Notes under the pieces: generated by a model
What the model saw: only the letters and a program-made list of their open reading frames with translations
Database searches by the model: none
Told to the model about the DNA's origin: nothing
Shown: positions 17,266 to 34,716 of the stretch, one piece after another
How the letters are laid out: every line of letters starts with the position of its first letter
How positions within the stretch are numbered: position 1 is the stretch's first letter
DNA from: Picochlorum sp. SENEW3
Lineage: Eukaryota
Direction of reading: 5' to 3'
DNA: 64,000 nt
Assembly: GCA_034226945.1 (NCBI GenBank)
Contig: CP120454.1
Coordinates: forward strand, 620,001-684,000
Translations under genes and position numbers: made by a program

Positions 17266-18312
17266 TTACTCAGAATTCGCCTGCTTTTTTCGCTTTTTCT
17301 TTGGTTTCTCCACCTGACAGCCAGGGCACTGTGATGCATCATGCTGATCATCATCATGTGTATCAAACGCCCCATCATGAGCAAGCATTCGCGTGGCAGA
17401 AACCATATCTATCTGATTACGAATATCTGCAGGGAGATTCTTCCGAAATCGCTCAAGATCCTCATTCTCACTCGGATGATCACTCAGCACAAGAACATCA
17501 GAGGGTGATGATCCATCCAAGCCTAGGAACTGAGCCAGCAACTTGTGTCGCTGTTCCGTCTTTTCTCTATATTTCTTTCTACTATCTTCATCCCCTTCGA
17601 TCCACCGACCTCCCCCAGGACATTCGCACGAGCAAATATCACACGCCTCATCCTCCCGACAAATCTCTAATTGTTGATCGACATCTGCAGCCATTAGTTC
17701 TCCATTATCTTTACACCGAGGACAATTTCGACACGGAGGAGCCATTTCTCTACACTGACATTTTCTAAACTGCATGAGAGTTCCATCTGGACCCAATTTT
17801 GTGTTCACCTTGCCATCCCTCACAGTATACGTGTGATTGCACCACGGACAGCTCTCCACCGGAATTGACACCGACTCTTTCTTTTCCACATCACCTCCTG
17901 GCAATGATTCTCGTGTCTTCTCTTGCATGGCGTGAACCTCAGCCGCTGCCTGCGCCTCCTTCCTCCTCTTCACCTCGCTTGCTAGAATATCAGACAATGA
18001 CGACAACACCTTCCTTTCCTCCCGCATCTCTTTCAGTCTCACTTGAAAATCACTTGCTTTTTTCACCTCGTCATGCCAAATAGCTAGAGATTCCGGCGTG
18101 CCGTCCCGCTTGTACGCAACCCTCTTGTCCACCTTGGACCGTTCAAGTTCCTTGGCCCTATCCCTCCCTTCTCGTAGCTGCTTCTCCAATTCCAACAGCT
18201 CTTTATACACTGAAACACTCCATTCTGCAAGTTTATCATCCTCAGTATCCCGAATGTTATCTGCATACTGAGCAGAAACCTCCTCACCAATCTTTTTCTG
18301 CGTCTTTACCAT
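17266..18312 (-). CDS. Unknown protein: coiled coil plus Cys-rich putative zinc-binding region and basic NLS-like tail
   Basis: 348-aa ORF; CPWCNH...CQC...CRNCPRC...CDICSCEC; C-terminal KPKKKRKK. Confidence 0.65.
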   Translation of the reverse strand: MVKTQKKIGEEVSAQYADNIRDTEDDKLAEWSVSVYKELLELEKQLREGRDRAKELERSKVDKRVAYKRDGTPESLAIWHDEVKKASDFQVRLKEMREERKVLSSLSDILASEVKRRKEAQAAAEVHAMQEKTRESLPGGDVEKKESVSIPVESCPWCNHTYTVRDGKVNTKLGPDGTLMQFRKCQCREMAPPCRNCPRCKDNGELMAADVDQQLEICREDEACDICSCECPGGGRWIEGDEDSRKKYREKTEQRHKLLAQFLGLDGSSPSDVLVLSDHPSENEDLERFRKNLPADIRNQIDMVSATRMLAHDGAFDTHDDDQHDASQCPGCQVEKPKKKRKKQANSE

Positions 18313-18977
18313 ATTTCAGCAGATGACACTCGATGACGCCTCAAATGGCATTTCCACGGTATTATTAGTCCATTTCAATCAAATTTGTGAAAGAATGCGA
18401 GAGTTTACGGCACGAAGTATACTCCATGAGTTTCTATTTTAATGCATCTGATTACGGAAGAGTGCCTTCCTTAAAAAGCATTTTGTGAACAGAATTTCCC
18501 GTCTCGAGGCAAGCCTTGCATTCTTTCTCTGATTGAAGGCATTGCTGTCCTCCTCTTCTCCTTGTTCCAGTTCGTCTTCGTCTCCGCGCGGAAGACCCAT
18601 CCACTATGATGTACAGGCTCCTAATCCACACAGATAGATATATCGACGTGTATAATTCATTTATTCTGACGAGAAGCGCCCAAATCCACCATCACAAATC
18701 CCACCACAACACTGGACAGACCATCCGGGCCTCCGAGATCTATCTCGGATTTGGACCCTCCAAAATCGGCCATTTTGAGATCTCCAAATGAGGCTACAGC
18801 CGGGAATGCCTCATTTCCGCCAAAGCCAAAATCGGCCCAAATGAGGGCCTCCCGGATAGCTATAGGGAGTTCAAATTTCGAATCAAAAAAATGCACTACC
18901 CCATGACCCAGGAGCCGTCATTCCCCAAAAAAATTAATCTTTTTTTGTGCGGACAACGGACTCATCTAGGGAGTAAA

Positions 18978-23090: not shown

Positions 23091-25443
23091 TTAGGAAGAT
23101 ATTGGGTGCGATTTCGACAATGCGAGCGCTCTCACCTTGTCAGAGAGGGAGGAATCCACACATGATTCTTCGATTTTCAGTTCTTCAATCACCTGTTTGT
23201 GGAGGTCTTCGAGATGTGTTGCATCTTCCTCCTCCAAATATTCTTTCAATGACTGAATAGCCGGTGCTAATGATTTTCCAGGAAGGCTGACGCATGCTTT
23301 CATGTGAGTGAGAATAAGGAGTGGTACTGCTGCTGCCAAGAGGACTGGACCTGCATCTGCTCCCTCTACTTGGGCAGACAGTGTGTCTTTCTGCTGAGCT
23401 GCAAGGCTGGACTCGGTCTTTTTATCAAGCGGCTTTAATCTAATTCCGGATTCTTCTGCTGCCTCGAGAAGCTGCTTTTGGAAATCTTCCATCATAGTTT
23501 GATTGCTTCGCGTGGCACTGACAACATCTGACAGTGCTTTTGAAAGGGCACTTGGGCATTGTTGAATGATGGCATTTCGTTCAGCCTGCTCCAAATGCCT
23601 CTTCACGGAATTCTTTGCACTTATTTCTTCCTCATCGTGCTGTGACATGTCAGCCGAGAGGAAATGGAGCAATGCATCACTGCATGCAGATCCTAGAGTC
23701 TTTATCAGATGGCGCTCAGCAGATGTTCTCTGCACCTCATCCGTCTCAAAGAGCACCTCAACACCTTTGGAGAAGTTTTGAAGAGAACAAAATGTGGTCT
23801 GAAGAAGTGATGTCGCGTGTTCTTTCAGTTCACGGCGGCGAGAGGCTCCTGCTGTGAAAATTTCATTTGCAGCCTTGTCATAGGCAGCTGAGACAACTGG
23901 AAGCATCTTGGCAGCCAGTGCAGATAGGAATTCCTCATGATCTTCCATATCTGGATACATCCTACAAATTGATCCTATCACAAATGCTTTTGACTTGACC
24001 ACACTTGACGCCTCGTCCATCGTCTGCTGCTGCTGCTGTCGCTCAGCCCCTTTGGCCTTTTTCTTGCCCCGTCCTTTTCCCTTCTTCCCCTTACCCATAT
24101 CCCACGAGTCATCGTCCTCCTCAGTCTCCTCCACCGCACTCACCTTTTTGCCCTTTTTCTTTCCTGCCTTGGTAGATTTTCCAGATTCTGGTGGCACCTC
24201 CTTATTCACGGTGCTTGCAACATGTTCCTCTTTGGCACGTTTGGTTGCCTCTTGTCTCAAATTCTCGGAGATGTCCTCAATCATGCTATGAGATATAACA
24301 ATAGTATCGCAGAATATATCTGTATGAGAGAAGATTCCAGATGAGGATGAATCTTTCTGCGCGTGTTGCAAGAGCCCACTCGCATCCTCTGCAGAGAAAT
24401 CAATAGGTACGACATCCAACATATTGCAAAAGCCTTCCTCTTGCACGCGCTCCTCAACATCCGGAATCAGTGAATGAACGAGCTGGGGAGACACATACAC
24501 AGTATCAAGCAAAATTGTATCAGGGTCCATGCCTTTCATGTACGCATCGATTGTATCCGTAACACCATGCTTTTTGGCATACTCTTTGCTCACATAGTGA
24601 TTCTGAGAATAGAACGAACTTACAGCTTCCTGCTGCGCCTGCAAATGTGCATGAGGTATCCAGCTGCCAGAAACAATCTTTCCTTTTAAATTCTCCGCAG
24701 CAATCACCTCGTCAACCAAACCAGGAAAGAATGCTGCCGGGCCTTCCACACCAAAATCCTGTTTCAATACACTGATCTGCACTGGTTGCAGCGCTCCACG
24801 GAGCGCTCCACGAATCTGACATCTGACTCGGGTTATATACGCATCCGTATATAGCACAATACCATCCATTTTACCGTAGATTATAGTCCCTAAAGCCTTT
24901 GTCACCTCGCTAGTTAACATGTCCATTGACAGCCCATGAGACCTGGCAACATCACTCAATGGCAGGACCCCAGCAGACTGCAATTTTTCTTCAATCTCCT
25001 TTGCAAGATCTTTAAAGTATGACAGTGAAAAAATTTCACCCTGTGCCAAGGTAATACGAGAAGAATGCTCTTTCGCCAGCCTCTCAGCAGCTGCTTGGCA
25101 GTGCCCCAAATCCATCCCAAGCAATGCTGGAACATCCACCAAGGCAAGCCTTCCCCCATGTTCCTCCACAATATCACGCAGCTCGGTCACAAGCTTATCC
25201 TTGGTGACATACTCCCTTCCATTTGCTGTGTAAAGCAACTCATTACCGATAAATCCCAGTTCCTTGAGTTTGATTATCAGTTCAACTGTGTTTCTCTCTG
25301 ACAGTGAAATCTGCAAGCAAAGGAAACACATCGATGATGGTCAGCTGTGACATACTGCATTACAACAAATTAACACATACCGATACTTTTTTCTGCTGAA
25401 CAGCCTCCAGGCCACTCAGAAGATCGTCGAGTGAGAGATCCAT
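23091..25443 (-). CDS. UFL1: E3 UFM1-protein ligase 1
   Basis: LSERNTVELIIKL, LLYTANGREYVT, GGRLALVD motifs and central KGKKGK low-complexity region; first exon from ATG 25443. Confidence 0.9.
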
Positions 25444-25691
25444 GACTGGAATTTAGAAATACCAATTACAGCACCCACATCAGCACATACGCCACTATCT
25501 AGCTAGAAATACATATATATCAGATACAAATATACTACCCTGCAGGGTGTCTAATACAGACATCTTGAATCATTGCTGATTCATTTTTGATTGAAAATTC
25601 GATTTAAGAAACGCATCGTCATTCGAATTAGTTCGGGCATTCCTCATCAACGTGGTCATTACTAAAATGATACATATAAATTAATAATGGA

Positions 25692-26723
25692 ATGAAGACT
25701 CGGGGCAAGGGACAAGAGAATCTCTCAACGGCAGAGAGGGCTCTGCAGGAAAAGTTCAAGATAATCAAACAGAGAAGAGCTTTGCAAGTAGGTTTCTCTG
25801 TTCCTCTACACGAAAGACACCGTTATGTGTCTCAAATATATTAACTCAATGCTGCTGTTTATGACGCAACGCATCATAGATATCTTGTTTTGCTGTAGAT
25901 TGACAGAGAAAGGAGAGCCCAGGAACGTCGAGATGCTGACCGATTGGCCAATCCTTTAGACACAATACAAGATGCCGACGCCGCGCGGCAGGAGGCAATT
26001 AGAATTATACGAGCTCGTCGGTTGGCTGCAACACATCACGGCGGGGTGTCGAAACCAGATGGGCAGGGGGCTTTGAAAATAAAGACAAAGATCAAATTGA
26101 CAGTTGGGGGACAGCAGCAGTCCACAGAGGGTTCCAAGGCTAAAGCCGCGTCTGTTCAACGCGAGACAGTTTCACGTGGGGGTGAAGAGAAGAAAAAGGT
26201 GGAGAGGAAGAAGCCACACATTGTCAAGAGGAAGCATCACGTACCATCACAAGAGCAGCAGCAAGAGCAGGAGCAGCAGCAGCCCCTGCCTCCAACCCCT
26301 ACGTTATTCATCAGTAATCTACCAGACTATTATACATCAGACAACATATACGAGTATTTTACGATGGAGTATAATCTGCCGGTAACGGATGTTCGAATCT
26401 ACGAAGGGCATTGTTCGGGACTGGTGACATTTCCCTCTTTCCAAGATGCTCAAGCACTCTTGGACTTCCAGCAGAGCCAACCACTCGTCTTGGAGGATAG
26501 AAACATCATCGTATCATGGGCAAATGCCGAAGACTTGCAGCAACATTACGAGCTACCGGTGGATCCGAGAGCACGGAATCATAGAGCGGCGCATGTGGAA
26601 GAACGAGCGCAGCGTGTTGCCAGTCAGATGAGACAACATGACATTCACCAGCCAGAGATGGGTGATGATGCTGACGACGAAGCTCCCTCTGGAAGACACG
26701 TCGTCTCATATGATGATTTATAA
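25692..26723 (+). CDS. RRM protein with NELF-E-like architecture
   Basis: Exon 25692-25787, intron 25788-25898, exon 2 in frame with ORF 25944..26723; RRM (TLFISNLP...GLVTF), N-terminal LSTAERALQEKFKIIKQRRAL, C-terminal RHVVSYDDL. Confidence 0.7.
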
Positions 26724-26784: not shown

Positions 26785-27144
26785 TTATCGATGGGATGTT
26801 CCAAACTGGTCAAAAAAACCCTTTTCAATCCCAACAGCAGCCCCCTTCTCTTCAGTGCACGCCTTCTTCTGCATACACTGATCTTTCAACGCTCTACCAT
26901 ATTCATACCTCCTCTTTCGAGCATTCTCCTCGTGCTCTTCATACATGGAATCAATGCGCTGCCATGTTATACACCACTCCTCATCTTCTTCCTGCCTGGC
27001 TCTACTGGCATGGACTTCCTTCTGCCGTCTCTCGTATACTTGTCTCGCCAATCCATCCATATCAATACCAATTTGTCTTTGTTTTTCATTCAGTATCACA
27101 TTCAATCTTTGAGGATCATGCGGCGGAATGATCTTTTTACCCAT
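26785..27144 (-). CDS. Short RIB43A-like protein (119 aa)
   Basis: N-terminal ILNEKQRQIGIDMDGLARQVYER and C-terminal FFDQFGTSHR match the conserved ends of RIB43A/RIBC proteins. Confidence 0.65.
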   Translation of the reverse strand: MGKKIIPPHDPQRLNVILNEKQRQIGIDMDGLARQVYERRQKEVHASRARQEEDEEWCITWQRIDSMYEEHEENARKRRYEYGRALKDQCMQKKACTEEKGAAVGIEKGFFDQFGTSHR

Positions 27145-27558
27145 GTCTGAGCACACAATACCTTGTACGTGTGTGGCAACTGACACACGTCAAAAACCCC
27201 GTCTTGGAACCAGTATCAACCACACACTAGTACGTATCAAATTATACAATATCATCTGTGTACTGATGTATATTCCCTCGAGTAATTGAATTTCCCAAGG
27301 GTTTGATAAAATCGATGTATTGTGCTCCTTCCCATGCATATGCAGCATGAAGCACATCACATGCAAATGCATGTTGTCAAGCGAAGAGCACTCCTAGTTT
27401 TTTATTACAGACAATGTTATATATTTCAAATATATACCTGCTACTAATAGATAAACGTGTTTGAATCATTCCGTGTGCTATGTCGTCACCACAAGAGCAG
27501 TCGTATGAAACTGTGACGATACACATGAACTACCGGTAATCATGTTCTGAACAACATT

Positions 27559-28677: not shown

Positions 28678-28719
28678 AGTTGATTGTTTTTAAGAGTACT
28701 ATGCTCATCAGCCATGCGC

Positions 28720-29144
28720 TTAGGCAGAGGTGAACTTGGTCACAGCCTTGGTTCCCTCAGACACGGCATGCTTTGCAAGCTCTCCTGGGAGGACCAAGCG
28801 CACAGCGGTCTGGATTTCGCGGGATGTCAAGGTTGGCTTCTTGTTGACACGAGACAACTGCATCAGATGTATATCATACACGTATGTCAGAGGACTGTTG
28901 GGTTGAGAATGTCATTTATGTGAAATCTTCCTTCACCTACCTGAGCAGCCTGGGAGGCAATCTTCTCGAACTGGTCAGCAATGAAAGAGTTCAAGATGGC
29001 CATGGCCTTGGAAGAGATTCCAGTGTCTGGGTGCACCTGCTTGAGCACCTTGAAGATGTAGAGCTTGTAGCTCTCCACTGACTTCTTGGCCTTCTTTCCG
29101 TCCTTCACGGTCTTTCCTGGTTTCTTAGCAGATGTTGGAGCCAT
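28720..29144 (-). CDS. H2B: Histone H2B (one 83-bp intron, 28858-28940)
   Basis: [23 protein letters not shown]...; exon 2 [45 protein letters not shown]. Confidence 0.96.
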
Positions 29145-29471
29145 TGTTGTTGATAGTAGTTGTGATTCACTGAGTGATTACAAAATTATTTGTTATGCGT
29201 AGACGTGGTTGCGTCCTCAAGTTTCCTAGAATGCCGAGAGCGGTCATGGAATGGAGGAACGCGTCAGCGCCCGGGATGACCATAGACCCAGATATGTCAC
29301 ATATCTGGTTGGACCCCACTCCCGGTCTCCGAGGCCTTGTTCGCATGCAATCGTCTCGAGGTCTGGTTACAAATTCGTTGCAACTCCCGGCCGTTGGATA
29401 CTATAAAACAAATAATCTCCAACACTTCTGTGTGTTTATCTATCAACTGCTACTCAAAACAACGCAACATC

Positions 29472-29846
29472 ATGTCTGGACGTGGAAAAGGAAAGTCTTC
29501 TGGCAAGAAGTCTATGACCAAGTCAGCCAAGGCTGGGCTTCAGTTCCCAGTTGGTCGTGTGGCCAGATACCTCAAGAAGGGACGCTATGCTGAGAGAATT
29601 GGAGCTGGTGCCCCAGTGTACCTTGCTGCCGTCCTCGAGTACTTGGCTGCTGAGGTTCTCGAGCTCGCAGGTAATGCTGCTCGTGACAACAAGAAGACCA
29701 GAATTGTGCCAAGGCACATTCAGCTTGCTGTCAGAAACGATGAGGAGTTGAGCAAGCTCTTGGCTGGTGTCACCATTGCCGAGGGAGGTGTGTTGCCGAA
29801 CATCCACGCCGTTCTTCTCCCAAAGAAGAGTGGAAAGAAGGAGTAA
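29472..29846 (+). CDS. H2A: Histone H2A
   Basis: [12 protein letters not shown]...[13 protein letters not shown]...IPRH-like canonical H2A sequence. Confidence 0.98.
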
Positions 29847-29890
29847 ATCCTGCTGCTGCTTGCATACAACAACAATTCAAACAATCAACT

Positions 29891-29906
29891 GGTGTTATTC
29901 AACACC
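29891..29906 (+). terminator. Histone 3' stem-loop (H2A)
   Basis: GGTGTT-ATTC-AACACC-ACCAT. Confidence 0.85.
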
Positions 29907-30126
29907 ACCATACTATGATGGAAATACTGTCATCTCTTAGAGATGATCTCTGCAATACTGTGGATGCTCACTTGGAGCAACACCACAAAAGAAAGGAAAA
30001 CATACCATACATACACTTCATGTACATCTGAATATTTTACAACAAGGTTTCTGCTATCATGACGAGTGAGTCATCCATTCATTCAGGTGTGTCAAAAAGC
30101 ACAAGTTTCCAAAAATAATACATGGT

Positions 30127-30142
30127 GGTGTTGAATAACACC
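30127..30142 (-). terminator. Histone 3' stem-loop (H3)
   Basis: GGTGTT-ATTC-AACACC-ACCAT on the minus strand. Confidence 0.85.
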
Positions 30143-30238
30143 AGTTTAAATGTAATTTGTCAAAGTCAGTAGTCTCTCTCTGGCATAATCAGCAGCAGAC
30201 TGTCAATCTCCACCTCCAGAAGAAAAGAAGAGAAAAGC

Positions 30239-30661
<423 letters not shown>

Positions 30662-30762
30662 TTAAGGTTGAAATAGTATTTGATACTGCCGAATCGGGAG
30701 ACGGGGCCGGTTTATATGGACAACGGAGACCTCAATGAAAATAGGCGCGATTGGGCGGATTC

Positions 30763-31885: not shown

Positions 31886-32343
31886 GGTCAAGTTTCTCGG
31901 GTAGAGAACACTACGTATATATTTGCTTGAACTTTGTTTCAGTAATGAAATACTTGAGTATTTACAATGATTTTGTGCGGCTATTTGGGCATGTTCTAGT
32001 CCTGGTCACATAGAGGCTTTGAGGGGTCGAACGAGCCTTTGGACCGGTTCGCCTCATGATCACGGGGTGCAAATACATTGGCACGTTAATGTGTCAAAAC
32101 ACTTGGATATATATCCGTATCTGGATTCACTATTGTTTCTAGAGAGTCATTAGATGTGTTGGAGAGGGGATTTATCGAGTTCTTCAATTTCAAACTGCTT
32201 GCTATGCCGCGACACTACACTGCACGTACAACTGCAATTTGCGGGCCACTAATCGCGGCACCAGAGCCGCGGCATGTGTAAAGAGATATTATTTGCCACA
32301 AAAAACACGATCTCAGTGTTCAATTTTCCAGTATTTTTTCGAT

Positions 32344-34716
32344 ATGTCTGATATATCTGAGTCGATTCAACAAAGCCCCGAGGCTTCTGAGAAGAAGGCA
32401 AGAAGCGTATCTCTGGCCGTTTACTTGATAACAGTTGGCGGTATCGTGGTGATAGCACTCGGTCTTGGTCTTGGTCTTGGTTTAGGATTAAAAGATAATG
32501 ATAAAGATGCGAGTTTTGATGAGAATGCTGAGAGTCTTGCGTTCATGACGTCCGACGCGACGTTGCCAGCACGTCTTTGGTCTGGAAACGCTGGTGTGTT
32601 TGGTGGATATAGTCCTGCTGATATCCCCGGAGGTTTGTCAACCGAAACCATGCTATCCCTATATGGTAAAGATGCACTTGAGAGAGCAACAAGATGGGCC
32701 AAAGAGGGTAAAGCTTTGTGGTGTAGCACTGCAGCAGACCCTGATGCTGATCCTCCCCTGGCTGGTGTTTTTCCATTTGTATCACCGCCAACGCAAAGCA
32801 CCAATTGGCCGGGTGCGTGTCCTAATTCGAACGAAGCACAGGCGTTGTTTAATAAAGGCTTAGGTTGGAGGATGCTTTTTAACGACAATGAAGCGACTTG
32901 TGCGTTTCAAGCTGCGTCTAGAGTTGATCCAACATGCAGTATGGCTTTCTTAGGAGCGGCTCTGGCTATGGGTCCAAATGTGAATTATGCTTTCATTACT
33001 TCGGATAGAGTATATCGATTGATATTAGAATCTTTGAATGGCGGTCTTGCTGCTCTCAACAGCGGTACAAAGCAGTCGGCATTGGCTGAAGCAGTGTATG
33101 CTGCACTGAGTCAAAGGTACTGCGTTCCAACCAAAGAGGCCCTCGATGAAGCCCTGGCTCTACCTGTCAGGGACTCATTTGAAAGATATAACAACCAATC
33201 TGCGTCTTGCAATGTTGAGTACGCAAACACAGTGTCCGCATTGGCTGAGGAGATTCCACAGGATCCAAACATTGCAGCACTGGCTGCTGGGGCGCTTATG
33301 CAGTTGCCAGCATGGCAGTGGTGGAGTATTGGTTCCACGTACGCGGGAGACTTGGTGAACGTGTCCTCAGCAGCGGGCGAAAATAATTTGACGAGTATTG
33401 GGCTGGCTAGTGGATTAGTTGAAAGGAATGCTTCTATAGCAAATGCAATTCTCCAGAGAGGGCTTCAGGTCCAACCAAAGCATTTGGGCATTCTTCATTA
33501 CATGATTCATAACTTGGAAGCATCTCCTCAGCCAACATGGGCTTTATCCGTGGCAACTGATTTGTATGATGAAGGTGGGTCGACACAGGGTCACGCTGCG
33601 CACATGAAGACTCACATGGATATGAGGGTTGGGGATTATGAACAAGCAATTCTAGGGAATTGGGTGGCGCAAAATGACGATGCTTGGTGGAATTTGAACA
33701 GGACCGGCGGTGGCATCATGTCTGTTCTATACAAATATGTTCCTCATAATACTGCGTTCATTGCTGAAGCAGCACAGCACGGAGCAAACTGGAAGAATTT
33801 GGCAGCATCCCTGACATTTTTGGGTTATGCTGCTGGGAATCCAATGCTTGCCGATGAGTCGATGCAATCTCTTGGACAGTATTTAACAAGGCAATTCTTA
33901 CAACCGCTAAGGTTTGGAATGTATGAGCAAGTTCTAGCAGGTAGTGACTTGGTTGAAGGTGTTGGTGTGAATGCATCCATTAAAATCACGTTGCCTGATG
34001 GCACAACAGGGAAGTCTCCATGCGATGACTGCTGGAGTGGACTCACTCTTGCAAAATCTATTGCGCTTTCCCGACTTGGTAGACCCCAGGAAGCCAATAA
34101 CCAGCTTGCTCAGTTGATCCAGTACAGCTCCCCATATGGTTGTGGCAATGATATTGTTTCAAAGGCTGTCCCAGATGCCTGCAACCCTGAAAATATTGCC
34201 GCATCTCCAGTCAATAGTGCAATAGAGATCTCGCGCTACTGGAACAGTACCATTGTTGCATCAAGAAAGACTACAAATGATTTGAACTCCTCCAGTGCCT
34301 CTGGAACCCTTACAATCAACAATTTGAATCCGATTGCAATGATCTATATGCTTTTACCATCCGCAGAACTAAAAGGCGCAGAAGGAGATATTGATGAAGA
34401 GATAGTTCTTTTAAGATATGCCCTTGAAGCGCAAAGCCAGCTGCAATATGACGAACCCTCTCCATTCTTCTATCAGATTCAAGAGACACTTGCTGGAGCA
34501 CTCATGCAGCGAGGAGAGCCCCAGGATTTGGAAGAAGCCATCAATGCTCTTCGATCCGAATTGTTTGCATGGCCAAGGAGTAGCCTTGCAACACTTGGAC
34601 TTGCCCAGGCCCTGCAGCTGAGTAATACCACTGCAGAGAACTCTGCTGGCATTGAAATCATGCTTCAAGAGGCTCTCACAATGAATGACACAGTGTTGGA
34701 TACCTCTTGGCTCTAA
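32344..34716 (+). CDS. Membrane-anchored TPR-like protein of a family typical of bacteria and fungi
   Basis: Intronless, about 790 aa; N-terminal TM; motifs AQALFNKGL..F N..EA..AF..DP.C.MA..G.A.A.GPN.N, HLGILHYMIH..EAS, GHAAHM..H...RVGDY, YDEP. Confidence 0.75.
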   Translation: MSDISESIQQSPEASEKKARSVSLAVYLITVGGIVVIALGLGLGLGLGLKDNDKDASFDENAESLAFMTSDATLPARLWSGNAGVFGGYSPADIPGGLSTETMLSLYGKDALERATRWAKEGKALWCSTAADPDADPPLAGVFPFVSPPTQSTNWPGACPNSNEAQALFNKGLGWRMLFNDNEATCAFQAASRVDPTCSMAFLGAALAMGPNVNYAFITSDRVYRLILESLNGGLAALNSGTKQSALAEAVYAALSQRYCVPTKEALDEALALPVRDSFERYNNQSASCNVEYANTVSALAEEIPQDPNIAALAAGALMQLPAWQWWSIGSTYAGDLVNVSSAAGENNLTSIGLASGLVERNASIANAILQRGLQVQPKHLGILHYMIHNLEASPQPTWALSVATDLYDEGGSTQGHAAHMKTHMDMRVGDYEQAILGNWVAQNDDAWWNLNRTGGGIMSVLYKYVPHNTAFIAEAAQHGANWKNLAASLTFLGYAAGNPMLADESMQSLGQYLTRQFLQPLRFGMYEQVLAGSDLVEGVGVNASIKITLPDGTTGKSPCDDCWSGLTLAKSIALSRLGRPQEANNQLAQLIQYSSPYGCGNDIVSKAVPDACNPENIAASPVNSAIEISRYWNSTIVASRKTTNDLNSSSASGTLTINNLNPIAMIYMLLPSAELKGAEGDIDEEIVLLRYALEAQSQLQYDEPSPFFYQIQETLAGALMQRGEPQDLEEAINALRSELFAWPRSSLATLGLAQALQLSNTTAENSAGIEIMLQEALTMNDTVLDTSWL

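What the first reader, a model, noticed from the sequence alone, without database searches (positions are those of the whole stretch)
25692..26723. NELF-E-like protein in a green alga
Seen: the spliced first exon (absent from the ORF track) gives LSTAERALQEKFKIIKQRRAL, then DADAARQEAIRIIRA, a single RRM and terminal RHVVSYDDL. Knowledge (recalled sequence): animal NELF-E has LSEEEEALQKKFNKLKKKKKAL, then DTATATEQAKQLVKS, an RRM, and a C-terminal R..IVYSDD tail that binds the cap-binding complex. NELF is regarded as absent from land plants and yeast, and NELF-E as largely animal-associated. Inference: four collinear similarities suggest a divergent NELF-E orthologue, hinting at promoter-proximal pausing machinery in chlorophytes.
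Basis: partly seen in the sequence, partly recalled or inferred. Interest (0 to 1): 0.72.

Follow-up and report, generated by a model that had tools for sequence, protein, structure and literature searches.

The report
Probable NELF-E subunit in green algae
This green-algal gene probably encodes a distant version of NELF-E, the part of the RNA-polymerase pausing factor NELF thought to exist only in animals, and the same genome holds the other three NELF parts, though the sequence link to NELF-E itself is weak.

Summary
The gene is real as described: two exons and a 111-nt GT-AG intron, spliced in 2 of 4 runs laid, giving 306 aa identical to Picochlorum 'hypothetical protein' WPT13417.1. It belongs to a conserved family (named members: Picochlorum, Auxenochlorella) with a basic N-terminal helix, a second helix, one RRM and a terminal RxxxxY tail. 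A profile of the N-terminus alone has NELF-E (8jj6_E) as best hit among 177,635 PDB sequences, but weakly (E 0.016; septin coils 0.12). The tail matches the NELF-E/ARS2 cap-binding-complex motif, which the alga's SERRATE also carries. The genome encodes NELF-A, -B and -C/D. Against: full-length profiles hit only generic RRMs, the Trp helix is missing, and SPT5 lacks the animal pausing motif. Verdict: about 70% a divergent NELF-E, completing a four-subunit algal NELF, against a 2024 preprint that places NELF-E in animals only; animal-style pausing is less certain. The scan's earlier notes held only diatom NELF-B findings, not this gene.

The parts
25692..25787 (+). exon 1 (residues 1-32), start codon and most of basic helix 1
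25788..25898 (+). 111-nt phase-0 GT-AG intron with two in-frame stops
   Evidence: spliced joint in runs X3 and X7; same position in L007, absent in L008
25899..26723 (+). exon 2 (residues 33-306) and TAA
25722..25916 (+). helix 1, residues 11-38 (spans the intron): S12, A14, E15, L18, K21 invariant in 12 of 12; aligns with NELF-E residues 7-41; putative NELF-B-binding and DNA-contacting helix
   Evidence: function inferred from PMC11881899 and PMC4940160
25971..26021 (+). helix 2, residues 57-73 (AR..AI.II.ARR; R62, A65 invariant in 12 of 12); partner unknown
26082..26099 (+). short conserved basic motif KTKIKL (residues 94-99) in the disordered linker
26301..26522 (+). single RRM, residues 167-240; RNP2 aromatic kept (F169), RNP1 degenerate in Picochlorum (S205, L207) but Y/F in more distant members
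26694..26720 (+). C-terminal tail R298-x-x-V301-x-Y303-D-D-L: RxxxxY motif of the kind that binds the CBP20-CBP80 groove
   Evidence: motif definition
23094..25443 (-). UFL1 (E3 UFM1 ligase) gene, head to head, 248 bp between start codons; shared promoter region, probably no functional link
   Evidence: same arrangement in L007 and L008

Best explanation
The gene encodes a divergent NELF-E, the fourth subunit of a green-algal NELF complex whose A, B and C/D subunits lie elsewhere in the genome. Shown: gene structure, splicing, conserved modules and their order, presence of NELF-A/B/CD, CBP80, SERRATE, NCBP3 and SPT5 genes. Inferred from animal NELF-E: helix 1 docks in the NELF-B cradle and its Lys/Arg face touches DNA ahead of RNA polymerase II; the flexible linker lets the RRM reach nascent RNA; the RxxxxY tail plugs into the CBP20-CBP80 groove of the cap-binding complex and is later replaced by SERRATE's similar tail. 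It would thus couple the early elongating polymerase to the freshly capped RNA. Whether this gives an animal-style, kinase-released pause (about even odds if it is NELF-E) or a looser slowdown and cap/3'-end hand-over is open.
For: N-terminal profile of 12 homologues: best of 5 hits at E<=10 among 177,635 PDB sequences is NELF-E 8jj6_E (E 0.016, 18.6 bits, residues 7-41); 4 of the 5 invariant helix-1 positions (S, E, L, K) are identical in it. Of the three DNA-contacting lysines of human NELF-E (K23, K27, K34; PMC11881899), two align with K26 and R29, the third with E36 between R35 and R37 (read). Tail: R298/V301/Y303 are spaced as R362/I365/Y367 of the crystallised peptide; strict tail pattern in 27 of 28 family sequences against 0 of 127 other RRM hits (family picked partly by that tail). 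Module order equals NELF-E's (PMC6769589: leucine zipper plus RRM, no RD repeats in Drosophila). NELF-B E 3e-20, NELF-C/D E 2e-59, NELF-A_N E 5e-9 in the genome; NELF-A confirmed against PDB (E 7e-8); a 90%-identical relative of the NELF-B matches human NELF-B (E 1.5e-25; full-length fold match to 8jj6_A). Auxenochlorella also has both a family member and NELF-B. Single copy. SERRATE and NCBP3 are other genes.
Against: The only direct link to NELF-E is 34 residues of a charged helix at E 0.016; septin coiled coils follow at E 0.12-0.16, and full-length human NELF-E chains were not listed. Exon 1 alone hits nothing. Full-length queries give nucleolin, PUB1, PABP and other RRMs; NELF-E is not among the rows shown (top 60 of 96 and of 371 in the last two). 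The tail profile does not find the NELF-E peptide. No Trp helix upstream of the tail (W345 in human) and no residues matching Y372 or F380. None of the 20 representative-search hits looked up carries a NELF-E name. Chivu et al. found NELF-E only in animals with BLAST and HMM searches of EukProt, a collection that holds Picochlorum members of this family. SPT5 lacks the NGN helix motif GNLR(L/M)G(Y/K/F)W reported for NELF-bearing pausing species.
Confidence: 0.7

Rival explanations
1. An algal cap-binding-complex adaptor unrelated to NELF: an RRM protein that gained the short RxxxxY tail independently, as ARS2, NELF-E and PHAX share it, and whose basic N-terminal helix resembles NELF-E by composition only. 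It would sort capped RNAs (splicing, export or decay).
For: The motif occurs in several unrelated CBC binders; the alga's SERRATE ends in the same R..[LV].Y.DL form. RRM hits are generic. Septin coils score within 3 bits of NELF-E. One member is labelled polyadenylate-binding protein, another SRE2.
Against: Does not explain why family-invariant S, E, L, K coincide with NELF-E residues at the N-terminus, in the same order of modules, in genomes that hold NELF-A/B/CD. The labels are automatic; no paper joins SRE2 with Auxenochlorella.
Confidence: 0.22
2. A generic splicing or mRNA-binding single-RRM protein (PABP/nucleolin/TIA-like fragment) whose terminal motifs have nothing to do with CBC or NELF.
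For: Best full-length sequence hits are nucleolin, PUB1, PABP; ESM Atlas returns unnamed RRM clusters at 0.80-0.85.
Against: Those hits come from summed scores over several RRMs; the R and Y of the tail are the best-kept residues of the family and the tail is absent from 127 of 127 generic RRM hits.
Confidence: 0.08

Closest known systems
Animal NELF-E (human P18615; PDB 8JJ6_E, 5OOB peptide)
   Same: Order of modules: basic N-terminal helix, disordered linker, one RRM, terminal RxxxxY; 11 identical columns in the 34-position helix match; genome holds the three partner subunits.
   Different: No RD repeats (also absent in Drosophila), no W345 helix, no Y372/F380 extension, RRM no closer than other RRMs, extra conserved motifs (KTKIKL; helix 260-279 before the tail).
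ARS2/SERRATE C-terminal CBC-binding peptide
   Same: RxxxxY followed by xDL; the alga's own SERRATE ends the same way.
   Different: No ARS2 or SERRATE domains; SERRATE is a separate gene on another contig.
Non-animal NELF-A/B/C homologues (Chlorella, Dictyostelium; UniRef NELF-B of Auxenochlorella)
   Same: Already reported or annotated in green algae (PMC4940160; a NELF-A domain in Chlamydomonas, PMC13089224).
   Different: No E subunit was reported with them in the passages read; Chivu et al. state strong evidence only in animals.

Membership tests
NELF-E | N-terminal Lys-rich helix (residues 1-37) homologous to NELF-E alpha 1 | tested here: met
   Best PDB hit of the N-terminal profile, weak: E 0.016, next 0.12; helix 13-49 at pLDDT 84-95; 5-9 K/R against 1-5 D/E in 13 of 13 members that include it
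NELF-E | Single RRM in the C-terminal half | tested here: met
NELF-E | RRM specifically closest to the NELF-E RRM | tested here: inconclusive
   Sequence profiles rank other RRMs first; RRM folds do not separate families
NELF-E | C-terminal RxxxxY motif (R362, Y367) for the CBP20-CBP80 groove | tested here: met
   R298, Y303; 27 of 28 family sequences, 0 of 127 others; shared with ARS2, so not specific
NELF-E | Trp helix (W345) for the CBP80 pocket (accessory affinity site) | tested here: not met
   No Trp after W239; none of 28 has its last Trp at the matching distance
NELF-E | RD repeats | tested here: not met
   Absent; not family-wide, Drosophila lacks them
NELF-E | NELF-A, -B, -C/D in the same genome | tested here: met
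NELF-E | Reciprocal best hit or monophyly with animal NELF-E | not testable with these tools
   No call returned a full animal NELF-E sequence or family model
NELF-E | Physical association with NELF-B and with CBC | not testable with these tools
   Needs co-IP or reconstitution
Animal-type pausing system | SPT5 NGN helix motif GNLR(L/M)G(Y/K/F)W | tested here: not met
   Picochlorum NGN reads GLRSVYFSKK at that place (position judged by eye)
Animal-type pausing system | NELF-A HDAg-like tentacle | tested here: inconclusive
   NELF-A has a long basic extension after its core; single-sequence search of it found nothing in PDB
ARS2/SERRATE | ARS2 and SERRATE_N domains | tested here: not met
   No match in 26 of 26 members; the orthologue is L005

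The most novel reading that the evidence does not exclude
Green algae keep a complete four-subunit NELF that pauses polymerase II near promoters through the same DNA-touching basic helix and hands the capped RNA from NELF-E to SERRATE. NELF-E then predates the animal-plant split and was lost with the rest of NELF in land plants and yeasts, rather than invented near the origin of animals; other protists counted as 'core NELF only' would hide equally diverged E subunits.
Probability: 0.35. Interest if true: 0.82.

Novelty: new variant of a known kind. Interest (0 to 1): 0.63.

Why it matters
The current account of how promoter-proximal pausing evolved (Chivu et al., bioRxiv 2023.02.19.529146) has an ancient NELF-B/CD core to which NELF-E was added in or just before animals, raising pause strength. 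A NELF-E in green algae would move the four-subunit complex back to the common ancestor of plants and animals and make subunit counts based on BLAST unsafe. It also gives a small, single-copy, haploid-genome-sized system (13.9 Mb) in which NELF function can be tested without HEXIM-type animal regulation, and a profile (helix 1 plus tail) with which to look for NELF-E in other protists.

Tried and rejected
Complex prediction of a NELF-B relative (P0181, 90% identical to the genome's exon 1, with a 23-residue read-through of the intron) with residues 1-80 of P0001: no answer, score 0.00 in both runs, alignments not used, partner fold uncertain; no evidence either way. Fold searches of the full model list only generic RRMs; NELF-E's RRM is not among the rows shown, which excludes nothing. 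ESM Atlas: generic RRM clusters for the whole protein, no usable hit for residues 1-80. Tail-only profile against PDB: only ZC3H12 at E 0.5. Pfam has no model that hits helix 1, helix 2 or the tail. Genome searches for HEXIM, INTS3 and PHAX found nothing, but nothing rang in the controls, so absence is not shown. No listed run was on record as RNA; splicing rests on contigs of guessed RNA runs. One search was circular (query inside the alignment) and is not used. Dropped from the family before counting: of 21 proteins read, P0031 (67-aa piece), P0097 and P0118 (two RRMs, no tail). 15 of 28 family sequences lack helix 1; most begin downstream, probably gene calls that miss exon 1 (inferred, not checked on DNA). 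Rejected: that exon 1 is not part of the gene; that the protein is SERRATE or NCBP3; a functional link to UFL1 or the histone cluster (only local synteny). Supplements of Chivu et al. (Table 1, Figs S5-S7) and Chang et al. (Fig. S11) could not be read and may list non-animal NELF-E candidates.

Full report
Observation. The coordinates are exact. Exon 1 runs 25692-25787, a 111-nt GT-AG intron with two in-frame stops runs 25788-25898, and exon 2 runs 25899-26723, giving 306 aa. Contigs from 2 of the 4 runs laid, from two studies, join 25787 to 25899; the other two runs, probably DNA, keep the intron. The product has no difference from WPT13417.1, 'hypothetical protein' of Picochlorum sp. SENEW3. 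The genome is 13.85 Mb in 14 contigs and the gene is single copy. A relative at 32% identity carries the whole protein in one frame, beside the same UFL1 neighbour.

The family. Word-seeded searches gave 3 and then 12 relatives; a profile search of 1.84 billion representatives gave 917 hits, of which 150 were listed. From these I took 18 single-RRM proteins that matched to the end of the profile; most of the rest are multi-RRM proteins. Named members are Picochlorum species and Auxenochlorella protothecoides; the others are unnamed metagenome or transcriptome proteins, so the range beyond trebouxiophytes is unknown. Conserved blocks, in order: helix 1 (S.AE.AL..K[FY]..I), helix 2 (AR..AI.II.ARR), KTKIKL, a basic patch, the RRM, a short helix, and the terminal R..V.YDDL. 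AlphaFold2 models helices 13-49 and 52-78, an RRM at 167-239 and a disordered linker. The strict tail pattern is in 27 of 28 family sequences and 0 of 127 other hits; the first count is partly circular, as the tail helped choose the family.

Link to NELF-E. Full-length queries are swamped by the RRM and return nucleolin, PUB1, PABP and the like. A profile of the N-terminal 76-101 residues of 12 members, searched against 177,635 PDB sequences, returned five hits at E<=10; the best is chain E of the NELF-BCE structure 8JJ6 (E 0.016), followed by septin coils (0.12, 0.16). The score is weak, but the hit is the one protein named beforehand, and 4 of 5 positions invariant in the algal helix are identical in it. 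In human NELF-E this helix is the only part resolved on paused polymerase; K23, K27 and K34 contact downstream DNA and reversing their charge weakens pausing (PMC11881899, passages; 2023.08.09.552658, passages). Two of these align with K26 and R29; the third falls on E36 between two arginines. NELF-B cradles this N-terminal region (PMC4940160, passages). The tail has R, aliphatic and Y spaced as R362, I365, Y367 in the CBC-bound NELF-E peptide (PMC5670239, passages and section 11), but ARS2 and PHAX share the motif (2023.07.25.550453, passages), and Picochlorum SERRATE ends in the same way, so it argues for cap-complex binding, not for NELF-E. A tail-only profile did not find the NELF-E peptide. 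The Trp helix and the Y372/F380 extension are missing.

Partners. The genome encodes NELF-B (COBRA1, E 3e-20), NELF-C/D (TH1, E 2e-59) and NELF-A (NELF-A_N, E 5e-9; PDB 5l3x_A, E 7e-8). A 90%-identical relative of the NELF-B matches human NELF-B by sequence and along its full length by fold, including the C-terminal region (8jj6_A, E 8e-14, 635 columns). CBP80, SERRATE, NCBP3 and SPT5 are present as separate genes. The SPT5 NGN domain lacks the short helix motif reported as conserved in NELF-encoding species and needed for pausing in Drosophila extracts (PMC10482750, passages), which counts against an animal-style pause.

How it most likely works. Shown: a spliced, expressed, single-copy gene with four conserved modules, in a genome with the other three NELF subunits and CBC. 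Inferred: helix 1 anchors the protein on NELF-B and offers a basic face to DNA ahead of polymerase II; the RRM binds nascent RNA; the tail occupies the CBP20-CBP80 groove until SERRATE replaces it. I put orthology at about 0.70, an independent CBC adaptor at 0.22 and a generic RRM protein at 0.08. Given orthology, a true promoter-proximal pause is about even.

What is known. NELF-A and -C homologues in Chlorella and Dictyostelium are in print (PMC4940160; PMC3371697, passages); UniRef names an Auxenochlorella NELF-B; a Chlamydomonas study notes NELF-A domains (PMC13089224, passages). [quoted passage not shown] Seven literature searches showed no report of a non-animal NELF-E; the library lacks most subscription papers and the unread supplements may bear on this. 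PMC6769589 (passages) and PMC10557634 (passages) were read for context. The scan's earlier notes hold two diatom NELF-B findings and nothing on this gene.

Verdict. Real, well-conserved gene; probably a diverged NELF-E that completes a four-subunit NELF in trebouxiophyte green algae. The case rests on a weak but specific helix match, module order and genomic company, not on a decisive homology score or a binding result. Interest 0.63.

Noticed in passing
L004:1444-2607 (G000:C1): Picochlorum NELF-A has a long basic, partly helical extension after its core. Short stretches in it reminded me of the animal NELF-A tentacle (recalled, no call), which Chivu et al. restrict to animals and Capsaspora; a PDB search of the stretch found nothing.
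   Followed up: partly
window 26785-27189 (-): 134-aa open frame with a RIB43A (flagellar microtubule ribbon) Pfam match, E 9e-9, tail to tail with the gene; a similar frame lies at L008 4829-5194. Odd if, as recalled, Picochlorum has no flagellate stage.
   Followed up: partly
window 25687-25695 (+): An out-of-frame ATG 5 nt upstream gives a two-codon frame whose TGA overlaps the real start codon; L007 has the same arrangement, L008 has short upstream ATG frames of another form.
   Followed up: partly
window 25444-25691: 248-bp AT-rich head-to-head region shared with UFL1, kept in L007 and L008; a compact bidirectional promoter.
   Followed up: partly
window about 28700-30700: Cluster of core histone genes (H2B and H2A head to head, H3-like frame beyond) 2 kb downstream.
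   Followed up: no
P0050 (EukProt transcriptome, taxon not shown): 236-aa single-RRM protein with a helix-2-like stretch and a variant tail, only 18% identical to P0001; may be a member from outside the green algae.
   Followed up: no
window 32143-34713 (+) and 17269-18315 (-): Long open frames (857 and 349 aa) without a Pfam match at E 0.01.
   Followed up: no
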